Virus record (IMG/VR): IMGVR_UViG_2718218100_000003
Strand: one strand, 5' to 3'
Source of the DNA: a virus
Lineage: Duplodnaviria > Heunggongvirae > Uroviricota > Caudoviricetes
Length of the DNA: 64,000 bases
Shown: positions 60,001 to 63,000 of the stretch, one piece after another
Position numbering within the stretch: position 1 is the stretch's first letter
Layout: each line of letters starts with the position of its first letter
Position numbers: made by a program

Positions 60001-63000
60001 AATGGCCCTCCAACCGTGTTGACGAACTCCTGCCATGGAACGTAGTTCTCACCAATAAATAAGCGTCAATACGGTGCTCCGTTGACGCTTACTTTAATCC
60101 GTTTTCTGAGCTTAGATTTTTCTGTTCCTACCCAGACCGTGGATTTGGAATTCATTTTTTGTCAGGTCAATGCTAATCGTTAAAACGGCCATAACGCACC
60201 TCCACTGGAAGGTTTATCAGTAATATCCTACCGTTGCTTCATGGTCGGGGCGTCCATTCCATTATTATCGGTTTTCCTTTCTGTTTATAAATGAAAACGC
60301 CAGCTGTATTCAGGCTGGCGTCAGGGGAAATGAAGCCTGTTGAGTGAGATTCACCGGTTCTGGTGCAGAAGCTGCAGATGGCGCAGGGTAAGGGCATCTT
60401 CTCTTGCCTGCTTAATACAGGACAACAGTGCTGTTTCTGTGGTTAATGGCACTATACCCTGCATCACTGCATTGTCTTACAGCAACTGGTGAGGGCTGGC
60501 ATAAGTTGCCGGTGTTTCGGTAGAGTCACGGTCATCCACCACGCGGAGTGAATAACCGTTTTCAGCGGCCTTATTAATCAGTTCAGTGATATTAACACCA
60601 TCAATGTCAACGACAATGTGCCCCATATCCAGCGCCTGTACGTTAACGCTGTCGGCTTCCAGTGTCATCATTTCGCCTCCGGATACTTACCCAGGGTAAT
60701 GTTATTTACCGTTCTGTAATTGTCGCGGGTCATCAGGCCGGTCGCCCTGCGAGCCCGGAGGATATCGATGCTGTTTATTAACTGAGAGCGGGTACAGGCG
60801 CTGAATCCCGGCTGGTCGGTAGCACCAGCGCGTATTTTTCCACGAGAAAGTTCACCGCATCACACAGTGAAATGCCTGCCTCAATATGCTGCTCAATCAC
60901 ACGTTCATCGGCAAAAGGTGTGTCATTCAGTGTGAGGCCATAGTGCTGGTCCAGCAGTCGGGACAGCAGTATCTGCCAGATTTCAACAGGAGACGGGCGA
61001 GAACTGGCCGCCTGCCCGGGTAATACAGGTAATGTTTTCATACTGAAGATTTTCCTGATATGCAGATATAAAAATGGAAAAGTGGCGTGGTGAAAACACC
61101 AGGCCGTAGCAGAAGGCTATTCTGGAGAGTTAATTTTTCATTTCGGGCGTCGGATAAACAGCCAGATAAACGTAACCACAACTGCTGAGGGTATCGGCTT
61201 TGCAGGTCAGCCCTTTTGCATACAGCGTGACGGTATGCTGATGGCGGGGATTCAGTTCACCGCTGGTGAGCATGAGTTCCAGTTGTTTCATCAGCAGCGG
61301 AAAGGCCTGGTCCGGGTGGTACGCATCTGCATCGCTGAACAGGCCTCTGATACCGGCGCGGTCGGCAAGGTAATGCAACCGGTTACCCTCCTGCACCAGA
61401 CGTGCCCCGAAACAGGGCGTCACGGTGCAGGGCAGCCCCCACCAGGGGCGGTCGTGATTGTCGTCGGGAAGTGTTGTCCCGGGGAGTGTGTCTGACACGA
61501 TAAAATCCTTACAGAAAATCGGCTAAGAATGGTCCGGTAGTGGCGATAATTCTGCTCATCAGAATTCCCACTCAGTTCAGGGTGACGCTCATCAGCCGGA
61601 CATACGGACCAAAACTGTCCTTACGGCGTTCAGCAAACACGGCCAGCACACCGGGAATATCCTGCACTTCACGACCGGTATACGCTTCAGCACTGCCGTG
61701 CCAGCGGTATTTACCGGTACAGAACGGAAAAAGACGGGATGTCGGATGTTGTTGGTGAATACGCATGGCTTCACCACGGGTGATAATTTTCATAATGGGA
61801 TACCTCTGAAGACAGAAGATAAAAGTGAAAACAGGTGTGATGTGGTTGTGACGGGTTAAAGCAGACCATGTTCGGCAAAGGAGAAAACCTGGTTGCCACC
61901 GACTATCAGATGGTCCGGCACCCGGATATCCACCAGGCCCAGTGCCTGTACCAGACGTTCGGTGATAAGCCGGTCTGCCTTACTGGGTGTGACTTCACCG
62001 GACGGGTGATTGTGTGCCAGTACCACGGCAGCGGCATTGTGGTACAGGGCGCGTTTAATCACTTCCCGGGGATGGACTTCCGTGCGGTTGATGGTGCCGG
62101 TGAAGAGGGTTTCACCGGCAATCAGCTGATTCTGGTTGTTCAGATACAGCACCCGGAACTCTTCACGCTCCAGTCCCGCCATGTTCAGAATCAGCCATTC
62201 CCGTGCTGCACGGGTGGAGGTGAAGGCCACACCGGGTTCATGAAGATGGCGGTCCAGGGTTTTCAGGGCCCGTTGAATGAGGCTGCGCTCGCCGGGCGTC
62301 ATTTCTCCGGGCAGAAAGGAAATCTGTTGCATTATTCCGGCCCCTTTCAGTCAATGATGCGCATAATGGCGCTGCCTTCCGGATGCTGCAGGGCGTAATC
62401 CCGCAACCGGTAATAATGGACCGTCATGGCATAATTCTCCGTACGACAGGCATGATGGCTGTACGTCATCAGACAGGCGGCAATACCGGCGGCTTCCGGG
62501 CTCATTTCAGCGCGGTTACCGTTCATGGCATTGAACAGTACCCATGTTTCGTCATCATCATCATCCGGTTCGGGGGCCATAAATGCCCCGCCGTTGTTCA
62601 GGGTGTACAGATTCCAGATACCACCGCAGTAGTCTTCGCACAGACGGTCCATCCAGCCGAAGACACGGGGCTCCAGGGTGACCCACTGTGGAATGAGGCC
62701 AAAATGCTGCGGCCAGAAGCTGATGCGCTGTTCATCAGGGACGAGGCTGGCAACCAACTGAGGCGGATTATTCTCTGGTGTTGTAGCTGAATAAATTGTG
62801 GGGGTATTCTGAGAAACGGTTTTCATGAGATAACTCCTTAAATAACAAATAAATGTGTGTTTTTCGGGAACGAAAGCTGAATGATTCCCTCACTCAGGGA
62901 AACGGCATCAGCGCAGGCTCTCCAGCATCGTTTCTGCCATCACCCACAATGCGCGATTGAGCTTAATGTCGGTATCAATGCTGTGAATGGCCCGGGTATG

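What the first reader, a model, noticed from the sequence alone, without database searches (positions are those of the whole stretch)
60668..61041. Frameshifted cbtA toxin next to an intact cbeA antitoxin
The toxin ORF matches CbtA/YeeV for 74 aa and then terminates early, while the +1 frame continues with the expected C-terminus down to a stop overlapping the yeeW-like start. This implies a single-nucleotide indel inactivating the toxin while cbeA stays intact. Nearby, only the last ~65 codons of a YeeP-type GTPase survive (59680-59880), marking the decayed edge of the island.
Basis: partly seen in the sequence, partly recalled or inferred. Interest (0 to 1): 0.45.

Follow-up and report, generated by a model that had tools for sequence, protein, structure and literature searches.

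The report
Frameshifted cbtA toxin pseudogene, antitoxin intact
One deleted base has broken the cbtA toxin gene of a toxin-antitoxin pair in an E. coli O157:H7 genomic island while the antitoxin gene stays intact; the lesion is real, already flagged in reference annotations, shared by about a quarter of complete E. coli genomes, and ordinary.

Summary
On the minus strand (61041 to 60668) the window matches K-12 cbtA at every base except one deleted G. This is nt 221, codon 74, between window 60822 and 60821. The product is 87 aa: 73 native residues plus 14 out-of-frame residues. The native C-terminus continues in another frame to a TGA that overlaps the yeeW ATG. cbeA is intact.

It is not an assembly error. 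The same junction occurs in 1,507 of 5,426 complete E. coli genomes (O157:H7, O145, O121, O111, O6:H16, O7:H15) and in Shigella. In all nine carriers examined it sits at the same tmaR-adjacent locus. NCBI's PGAP pipeline already annotates it as "cbtA, frameshifted".

The 87-aa length is a by-product: any 1-nt deletion between nt 188 and 263 gives it. Other damaged alleles also exist.

The side claim is wrong. The GTPase fragment (59680-59862) is not YeeP-type. It is the last 60 codons of pduV, a species-wide relic of an ancestral pdu operon that is still intact beside tmaR in E. whittamii and E. ruysiae. It belongs to the chromosomal backbone, not the island.

Verdict: a known, ordinary toxin pseudogene with an orphan antitoxin. 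Interest is low.

The parts
60668..61041 (-). cbtA (yeeV) pseudogene. The full homologous span is 374 nt, against 375 nt in K-12.
   Evidence: Identical to K-12 cbtA except for one deleted G. PGAP annotates it as 'cbtA, frameshifted'.
60821..60822 (-). Frameshift site. The G of codon 74 (CGT, nt 221) is missing between these two bases.
   Evidence: Alignment; simulation.
60778..61041 (-). Residual 87-aa ORF: CbtA residues 1-73 plus the 14-residue out-of-frame tail [14 protein letters not shown].
   Evidence: Pfam CbtA_toxin positions 1-73 of 112. Annotated as yeeV ECs_2806 in Sakai.
60668..60820 (-). Stranded 3' part of cbtA (native residues 75-124) in a different frame. Its TGA overlaps the yeeW ATG.
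   Evidence: sequence.
61130..61498 (-). cbeA (yeeU) antitoxin gene, intact, 122 aa.
   Evidence: Pfam CbeA_antitoxin positions 1-100 of 101, E = 9e-52. One or two substitutions against most other strains compared, including K-12.
60477..60671 (-). yeeW, 64 aa. Only the N-terminal domain of a DUF5983 protein, which is 163 aa in the intact paralogous island.
   Evidence: Pfam DUF5983_N. Comparison with L004.
60351..60443 (-). DUF957 gene fragment, N-terminus missing.
   Evidence: PGAP annotation of the identical sequence. Homology to L004 3290-3458.
59925..60062 (+). IS66-family transposase C-terminal fragment (K-12 yoeD), the last island-derived sequence.
   Evidence: Sakai repeat_region 'ISEc23, IS66 family, partial'. 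PGAP 'transposase domain-containing, incomplete'. Translation.
59680..59862 (-). pduV relic (the real part of K-12 yoeF): the last 60 codons of an EutP/PduV-family GTPase. It is chromosomal backbone, not island.
   Evidence: Pfam and NCBIfam. Present in 5,417 of 5,426 genomes. Full-length 147-aa ortholog beside tmaR in L025, L026 and L027.
59250..59579 (+). tmaR (yeeX), the first intact core gene flanking the island.
   Evidence: Annotations. NCBIfam TmaR on the ortholog.
61572..63729 (-). Upstream island genes in the same orientation: yeeT (DUF987, 61572-61793), yeeS (RadC/JAB, 61856-62332), an antirestriction gene (62347-62826) and a DUF932 gene (62908-63729).
   Evidence: Pfam. Sakai SpLE2 annotation.

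Best explanation
This is a pseudogene of the type IV toxin CbtA (YeeV). It lies in the SpLE2 island of E. coli O157:H7, the counterpart of K-12 cryptic prophage CP4-44. Loss of one G in codon 74 (c.221delG) shifts the frame. Translation then adds 14 unrelated residues and stops at codon 88, so the last 51 of 124 residues are lost. In an AlphaFold model these include the last two of five predicted helices. The most likely consequence, which is inferred and not shown, is a non-toxic or unstable product. That leaves cbeA as an orphan antitoxin. CbeA does not need its own toxin to be useful. It acts on the cytoskeleton and neutralises the paralogous toxins YkfI and YpjF, and O157:H7 still carries intact paralogous toxin-antitoxin pairs elsewhere. 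The lesion is an old, shared allele and not a strain-specific event. It sits at the same locus in several serogroups and in Shigella. It lies on an island segment that is 3 to 10 times less diverged than the adjoining core DNA in the strain comparisons made here, so it probably spread with that segment by recombination or horizontal transfer. Premature termination also uncouples translation from the overlapping yeeW start, but yeeW is itself a truncated remnant.
For: Shown by tool results:
- There is a single 1-nt deletion and no other difference from functional K-12 cbtA.
- PGAP calls the gene 'frameshifted' in EDL933 and in eight other carriers at the same tmaR-adjacent locus.
- The deleted-G junction 40-mer is in 1,507 of 5,426 complete genomes, in a Shigella flexneri genome, and in O55:H7.
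- Island divergence is 0.13-0.44% against 1.1-2.4% for the core flank, with Fisher p from 1.5e-6 to 0.07.
- Carriers show further decay. T16R has a second frameshift and a recombinant 3' end. P0003 has a second frameshift and P0023 is disrupted after codon 75. The three point changes seen in carriers' 5' ORFs are all nonsynonymous: A12T, L38Q, A71V.
- The 87-aa length follows from any 1-nt deletion between nt 188 and 263. Full-length family members are 124-126 aa.
- The AF2 model of a full-length member has helices 18-34, 46-54, 59-74, 82-101 and 106-116 (pLDDT 72.7), so the truncation removes the last two.
- O157:H7 has an intact 124-aa paralog with its own YeeU-family antitoxin. The intact junction is found at two places in an O157:H7 genome.
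- CbeA neutralises YkfI and YpjF, and the operon is not autoregulated (PMC5371832).
Against: No experiment shows that the 87-aa product is inactive. Both residues known to specify target binding, R15 for MreB and F65 for FtsZ (PMC5624674), lie within the retained 73 residues. A review summarises Tan et al. 2011 as assigning FtsZ binding to the N-terminus and MreB binding to the C-terminus (PMC3920263), so partial FtsZ-directed activity cannot be excluded. The allele is very common (28% of complete genomes). Apart from T16R, the sampled carriers show no substitutions in the stranded 3' part. That pattern fits a young, hitch-hiking pseudogene but gives no power to prove neutrality. Counts from complete genomes are biased by sampling, with many O157:H7 genomes included.
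Confidence: 0.85

Rival explanations
1. The 87-aa product is a functional short toxin or modulator. It would keep the N-terminal part of CbtA, including F65 and R15, and still bind FtsZ and/or MreB. It could act as an attenuated, FtsZ-only toxin, or as a harmless competitor of the paralogous toxins. That would help explain why the allele is so common.
For: R15 and F65 lie within residues 1-73 (PMC5624674). A review of Tan 2011 assigns FtsZ binding to the N-terminus (PMC3920263). The allele is in 28% of complete genomes, and the start codon and 5' ORF are preserved in most sampled carriers.
Against: Two of five predicted helices and 41% of the chain are lost. The tail is out-of-frame sequence. 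All three 5' substitutions seen in carriers are nonsynonymous. Some carriers have second frameshifts or a changed N-terminal start. The length of 87 aa is a mechanical by-product. No family class of this length exists apart from frameshift products.
Confidence: 0.09
2. This is recoding. A low-frequency -1 ribosomal slip in the window where both frames are open, for example at GAA-AAA-T in codons 69-70, would restore the native C-terminus and give a trickle of near-full-length toxin.
For: The restoring frame is open from 13 codons upstream of the deletion. An A5 run lies inside that window. The stranded 3' part is unchanged in most carriers.
Against: There is no canonical X XXY YYZ heptamer and no Shine-Dalgarno-like stimulator. 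The local RNA fold is no more stable than shuffled sequence (z = -0.93, 34 of 200 shuffles fold as well). The same sequence context exists in the intact allele, so nothing is specific to the deleted one. Some carriers have further frameshifts.
Confidence: 0.02
3. This is a sequencing or assembly error, and the real gene is intact.
Against: The site is not a homopolymer (GTGC|TACC). The identical junction occurs in 1,507 complete genomes produced by many laboratories and platforms, including the Sanger-era Sakai and EDL933 genomes.
Confidence: 0.01

Closest known systems
CbtA/CbeA (YeeV/YeeU) type IV toxin-antitoxin pair of cryptic prophage CP4-44, E. coli K-12
   Same: Same chromosomal locus next to tmaR (yeeX). 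Same gene order: yeeS, yeeT, cbeA, cbtA, yeeW, IS66 fragment, yoeF. cbtA is identical at 374 of 375 nt, and cbeA differs by 2 nt.
   Different: The K-12 allele is intact (124 aa) and experimentally toxic. Here G221 is deleted, giving 73 native residues plus 14 frameshifted ones. The O157 island (SpLE2) also has different upstream cargo.
YkfI/YafW (CP4-6) and YpjF/YfjZ (CP4-57) paralogous pairs
   Same: Same Pfam families and the same island module (DUF932, antirestriction, RadC, DUF987, antitoxin, toxin, DUF5983). O157:H7 retains an intact pair of this type near tRNA-Ser and ghrA. CbeA cross-neutralises these toxins (PMC5371832).
   Different: Those copies are intact. About 88-90% nucleotide identity to the window's cbeA-cbtA.
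Orphan antitoxins and degenerate chromosomal toxin-antitoxin loci (the 'anti-addiction' idea, e.g. chromosomal ccd protecting against plasmid ccd; own knowledge)
   Same: The toxin is inactivated by a small lesion while the antitoxin stays intact, and homologous toxins are present elsewhere in the genome.
   Different: No protective role was tested here. CbeA acts on the cytoskeleton rather than by binding the toxin, so cross-protection is generic and not allele-specific.
pduV of the propanediol-utilisation microcompartment operon (K-12 yoeF is the same relic)
   Same: The 60-codon fragment is 85-93% identical to the C-terminus of the full-length 147-aa PduV that ends a PduP-Q-S-T-U-V gene run beside tmaR in E. 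ruysiae, E. whittamii and a divergent Escherichia genome.
   Different: Only the last 60 codons survive. Upstream it abuts an IS66 fragment at the island edge. The annotated 118-aa yoeF ORF is a chimaera that runs on into that fragment.

Membership tests
CbtA/YeeV toxin family (Pfam PF06755) | Sequence homology to the family profile | tested here: met
   E = 1.3e-37 for the 87-aa ORF. 374 of 375 nt identical to K-12 cbtA.
CbtA/YeeV toxin family (Pfam PF06755) | Single uninterrupted ORF covering the whole domain (112 profile positions, about 124 aa) | tested here: not met
   The ORF covers profile positions 1-73 only. The rest lies in another frame after the 1-nt deletion. It is therefore a pseudogene of the family and not an intact member.
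CbtA/YeeV toxin family (Pfam PF06755) | Toxicity through binding of FtsZ and MreB | not testable with these tools
   Needs expression and interaction assays. R15 and F65 are retained, but helices 82-101 and 106-116 are lost.
Type IV toxin-antitoxin module cbeA-cbtA | Intact CbeA/YeeU antitoxin gene immediately upstream on the same strand | tested here: met
   cbeA at 61130-61498, Pfam CbeA_antitoxin positions 1-100 of 101. An 88-nt spacer separates it from cbtA.
Type IV toxin-antitoxin module cbeA-cbtA | Both partners intact, giving a functional pair | tested here: not met
   The toxin gene is frameshifted.
Programmed -1 ribosomal frameshift genes (dnaX or IS3 type) | Slippery heptamer X XXY YYZ plus a stimulatory structure or Shine-Dalgarno-like element, conserved as such | tested here: not met
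   No canonical heptamer is present (sequence). The local fold has z = -0.93. The intact allele exists at the same locus in other strains.
   The only significant hits are PduV-EutP (Pfam PF10662, E = 1.7e-12) and TIGR02528 EutP/PduV. K-12 yeeP lies at the other end of CP4-44.
PduV (EutP/PduV microcompartment GTPase) | Homology to the family, plus orthologous position at the 3' end of a pdu-type operon | tested here: met
   Matches profile positions 86-142 of 143. A full-length ortholog follows PduP, Q, S, T and U homologs and precedes tmaR in L025-L027. As a gene it is a 3' fragment only.

The most novel reading that the evidence does not exclude
The delG allele is not mere decay but a selected state. 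One form of this: loss of toxin with retention of CbeA gives an 'anti-addiction' or immunity module against incoming CbtA-family islands. Another: the 87-aa N-terminal fragment acts as an attenuated FtsZ-directed modulator. Either would explain why one specific lesion has reached about 28% of complete E. coli genomes across several serogroups, on an island segment that has moved between lineages.
Probability: 0.08. Interest if true: 0.45.

Novelty: already known. Interest (0 to 1): 0.13.

Why it matters
It matters little in itself. It is one more decayed toxin gene in a cryptic-prophage remnant, and reference annotation already flags it. It has three practical uses. First, O157:H7 'yeeV' (ECs_2806, 87 aa) should not be counted as a functional toxin in toxin-antitoxin inventories. 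Second, the delG junction is a convenient marker for one widely shared CP4-44/SpLE2 haplotype. Third, the neighbouring 'yoeF' ORF is best read as a relic of pduV, which fixes the true island-backbone boundary between 59863 and 59925.

Tried and rejected
- Tan et al. 2011, the paper with YeeV truncation data, could not be read, and a phrase search found nothing. I relied on a review's one-sentence summary.
- Literature searches for a description of the O157 cbtA frameshift or of SpLE2 toxin-antitoxin content found nothing specific.
- There is no solved structure for the CbtA family, so an AF2 model of moderate confidence was used instead.
- I tested whether a second lesion seen in protein-database clusters recurs on the cbtA background in complete genomes. 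This is a delA in the A5 run, giving '...ENTRWCVPTS...'. It does not recur there, so those clusters are rare, may be sequencing errors, or lie on paralog backgrounds. I do not claim recurrence from them.
- I considered that 87 aa might be a natural short family class, because many 87-aa clusters exist at 74-92% identity. I rejected this. The alignment shows they all carry the same out-of-frame tail, and the length is a mechanical consequence of any nearby 1-nt deletion.
- I considered programmed frameshifting and rejected it.
- The genome-contig scan with the 60-aa fragment reached only Escherichia and Shigella, so synteny with the Salmonella or Citrobacter pdu operons was not tested directly.

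Full report
**What the window is.** The 1.2 kb around the finding is 100% identical to many E. coli O157:H7 chromosomes, including Sakai and EDL933. In Sakai it lies inside 'phage-like element SpLE2'. SpLE2 occupies the position of cryptic prophage CP4-44 in K-12, next to yeeX/tmaR, yeeA, sbmC and dacD. The window runs in the opposite orientation, so the island genes are on the minus strand.

**Checking the observation.** Reading the minus strand from 61041, frame 1 gives 73 residues identical to K-12 CbtA, then [14 protein letters not shown] and a stop (87-aa ORF at 60778-61041). Another frame carries the native residues 75-124 and ends in a TGA (60670-60668). That TGA overlaps the ATG of yeeW (60671-60669). 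A nucleotide alignment with K-12 cbtA shows exactly one difference across the gene: the G of codon 74 (CGT, nt 221) is missing, between window 60822 and 60821. cbeA (61130-61498) matches CbeA_antitoxin end to end.

**Not an error, and not strain-specific.** I built a 40-nt probe in which every 28-nt seed word spans the deletion junction. It hits 1,507 of 5,426 complete E. coli genomes. These include O157:H7, O145:H28, O121, O111:H8, O6:H16 and O7:H15. The corresponding intact probe hits 3,305 genomes, but that count includes paralogous copies. I fetched the locus from eight non-O157 carriers. In all of them it is the same tmaR-adjacent locus with the same gene order, and PGAP marks cbtA 'frameshifted', as it does in EDL933 over the identical 374-nt span. 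K-12 and four other strains carry the intact allele at the same locus. A Shigella flexneri genome has the same deletion, and so does O55:H7 USDA 5905. The site (GTGC|TACC) is not a homopolymer. An assembly error is excluded, and the lesion predates O157:H7.

**How the allele is distributed.** I compared the window with the other strains in two adjoining stretches. The island segment from cbeA to the IS66 fragment (1,574 nt) differs at 0.13-0.44% of sites. The core flank immediately beside it (pduV relic, tmaR and the start of yeeA; 849 nt) differs at 1.1-2.4%. Fisher p ranges from 1.5e-6 to 0.07 depending on the pair. The island segment, with or without the deletion, therefore shares a more recent ancestor than the chromosomes that carry it. 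This points to spread by recombination or horizontal transfer. That is an inference; no phylogeny was built.

**Is the 87-aa form a natural short family member?** The protein database holds many 87-aa CbtA-like clusters at 74-92% identity to the query. The alignment shows that all of them end in the same out-of-frame tail. They fall into two groups:
- The delG lesion, on either a CbtA-type or a YkfI/YpjF-type N-terminus. The latter are mosaic alleles.
- A different 1-nt deletion in the A5 run of codons 69-70, giving '...ENTRWC/NTHWY-VPTSRDS...'.

A simulation shows that any 1-nt deletion between nt 188 and 263 reads into the same TAA and gives exactly 87 aa. The shared length is therefore mechanical. 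The delA lesion on the exact cbtA background is absent from complete genomes, so I draw no conclusion about recurrence from it. Full-length members are 124-126 aa.

**Signs of decay in carriers.** T16R has a second frameshift near codon 9 and a recombinant 3' end. P0003 has delG plus a second frameshift, and P0023 is disrupted just after codon 75. The three point changes seen in carriers' 5' ORFs are all nonsynonymous (A12T, L38Q, A71V). The numbers are too small for a formal test. For example, the chance that all three changes fall in the 5' part is 0.20.

**Likely consequence.** An AlphaFold2 model of a full-length family member has helices at 18-34, 46-54, 59-74, 82-101 and 106-116 (pLDDT 72.7, pTM 0.60). 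The frameshift cuts at the end of helix 3 and removes the last two helices, 41% of the chain. Loss of toxicity is the most likely outcome, but this is inferred. Two points argue for caution:
- The residues shown to specify MreB binding (R15) and FtsZ binding (F65) both lie in the retained part (PMC5624674).
- A review summarises Tan et al. 2011 as assigning FtsZ binding to the N-terminus and MreB binding to the C-terminus (PMC3920263). I could not read the primary paper.

I therefore keep 'partly active short form' as a rival at about 9%. A frame-restoring -1 slip is formally possible, because both frames are open over about 27 codons that include a GAAAAAT run. However, there is no canonical slippery heptamer, and the local RNA fold is no better than shuffled sequence (z = -0.93).

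**Why cbeA may persist.** CbeA antagonises the toxin indirectly, through the cytoskeleton. In K-12 it neutralises the paralogous toxins YkfI and YpjF as well, and the operon is not autoregulated (PMC5371832). O157:H7 keeps an intact 124-aa CbtA-family toxin with its own YeeU-family antitoxin in another island near tRNA-Ser and ghrA. The intact junction occurs at two places in an O157:H7 genome. Retention of cbeA through cross-protection, or simply because too little time has passed, are both plausible. Neither was tested.

**The GTPase fragment.** The 118-aa ORF at 59680-60036 matches Pfam PduV-EutP only over its last 56 residues (profile positions 86-142 of 143). NCBIfam gives TIGR02528 EutP/PduV. 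PGAP names the 60-codon ORF (59680-59862) 'EutP/PduV family microcompartment system protein'. It is K-12 yoeF. The fragment occurs once per genome in 5,417 of 5,426 E. coli at 90-100% identity, and it diverges like core DNA. In E. ruysiae, E. whittamii and a divergent Escherichia genome, the homolog is a full-length 147-aa gene. There it is the last gene of a run encoding PduO-like, aldehyde dehydrogenase (PduP-like), alcohol dehydrogenase (PduQ-like), PduS-like, PduT and PduU/EutS-like proteins, and it is followed directly by tmaR and yeeA. The fragment is therefore the 3' stump of an ancestral pdu operon in the chromosomal backbone, not a YeeP-type island gene. The island's own decayed edge consists of three remnants:
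- yeeW reduced to its N-domain (64 aa against 163 aa).
- A DUF957 fragment, with 466 bp missing between the two relative to the intact paralogous island.
- An IS66 transposase fragment at 59925-60062.

The island-backbone junction lies between 59863 and 59925.

**Verdict.** It is already captured by RefSeq annotation, and it is a common kind of event: a toxin pseudogene beside an orphan antitoxin in a cryptic-prophage remnant. The population frequency and the mosaic spread of the allele are mildly interesting. The 'YeeP GTPase at the island edge' claim is wrong and is replaced by a pduV relic. Novelty: already known. Interest: low.

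Noticed in passing
window 1-55806, with stx2 genes at 21256-22565: Most of the window is a lambdoid Stx2 prophage integrated in sbcB. Collinearity with Sakai stops 49 nt into sbcB at window 55807. The stx2 A subunit (21256-22284) and B subunit (22296-22565) ORFs lie just downstream of three tRNAs at 20989-21229. From my own knowledge, not tested here, the B-subunit residues look Stx2c/d-like and sbcB is a known Stx2c-phage integration site. nleG7, lom and the tail genes lie at 50000-56100. The best match is strain AUSMDU00002545 at 100%.
   Followed up: partly
window 5992-6050, 14881-15066, 17191-17307, 22640-22851: Rfam hits inside the prophage: the lambda cIII thermoregulator, isrK, C4 antisense RNA, an ALIL pseudoknot (which points to an IS3-family element inserted in the prophage), and STnc100 just downstream of stx2B.
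   Followed up: no
window 60477-60671 and 60351-60443: yeeW is only the N-terminal domain of a DUF5983 protein (64 aa, against 163 aa in the intact paralogous island). Between it and the DUF957 fragment, 466 bp present in the paralog are missing. The same truncation is in K-12.
   Followed up: yes
window 59925-61498 versus 59014-59862: The island segment is 3 to 10 times less diverged between the strains compared than the core DNA beside it. This implies recent exchange of the CP4-44/SpLE2 right end among lineages.
   Followed up: partly
L002 (EDL933) versus window and L001 (Sakai): In EDL933 an IS3-family element sits directly upstream of yeeT, and the yeeS, antirestriction and DUF932 genes found in Sakai and in the window are absent there. 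SpLE2 content therefore differs among O157:H7 strains.
   Followed up: no
L017, L018, L024: The E. coli-specific pduV relic (95-98% identity) turns up in metagenome-assembled genomes labelled Veillonella parvula, Planctomycetota and Segatella copri. This is almost certainly E. coli contamination of those bins.
   Followed up: no
L008 (O111:H8 strain 02-3334) and L009 (19AR0656): The neighbouring core gene yeeA is annotated as frameshifted in one carrier strain and truncated in another.
   Followed up: no
L014 (TO217), locus positions 484-1128: One strain with an intact cbtA has an extra 645-nt hypothetical ORF inserted between yeeT and a more divergent YeeU-family antitoxin gene.
   Followed up: no
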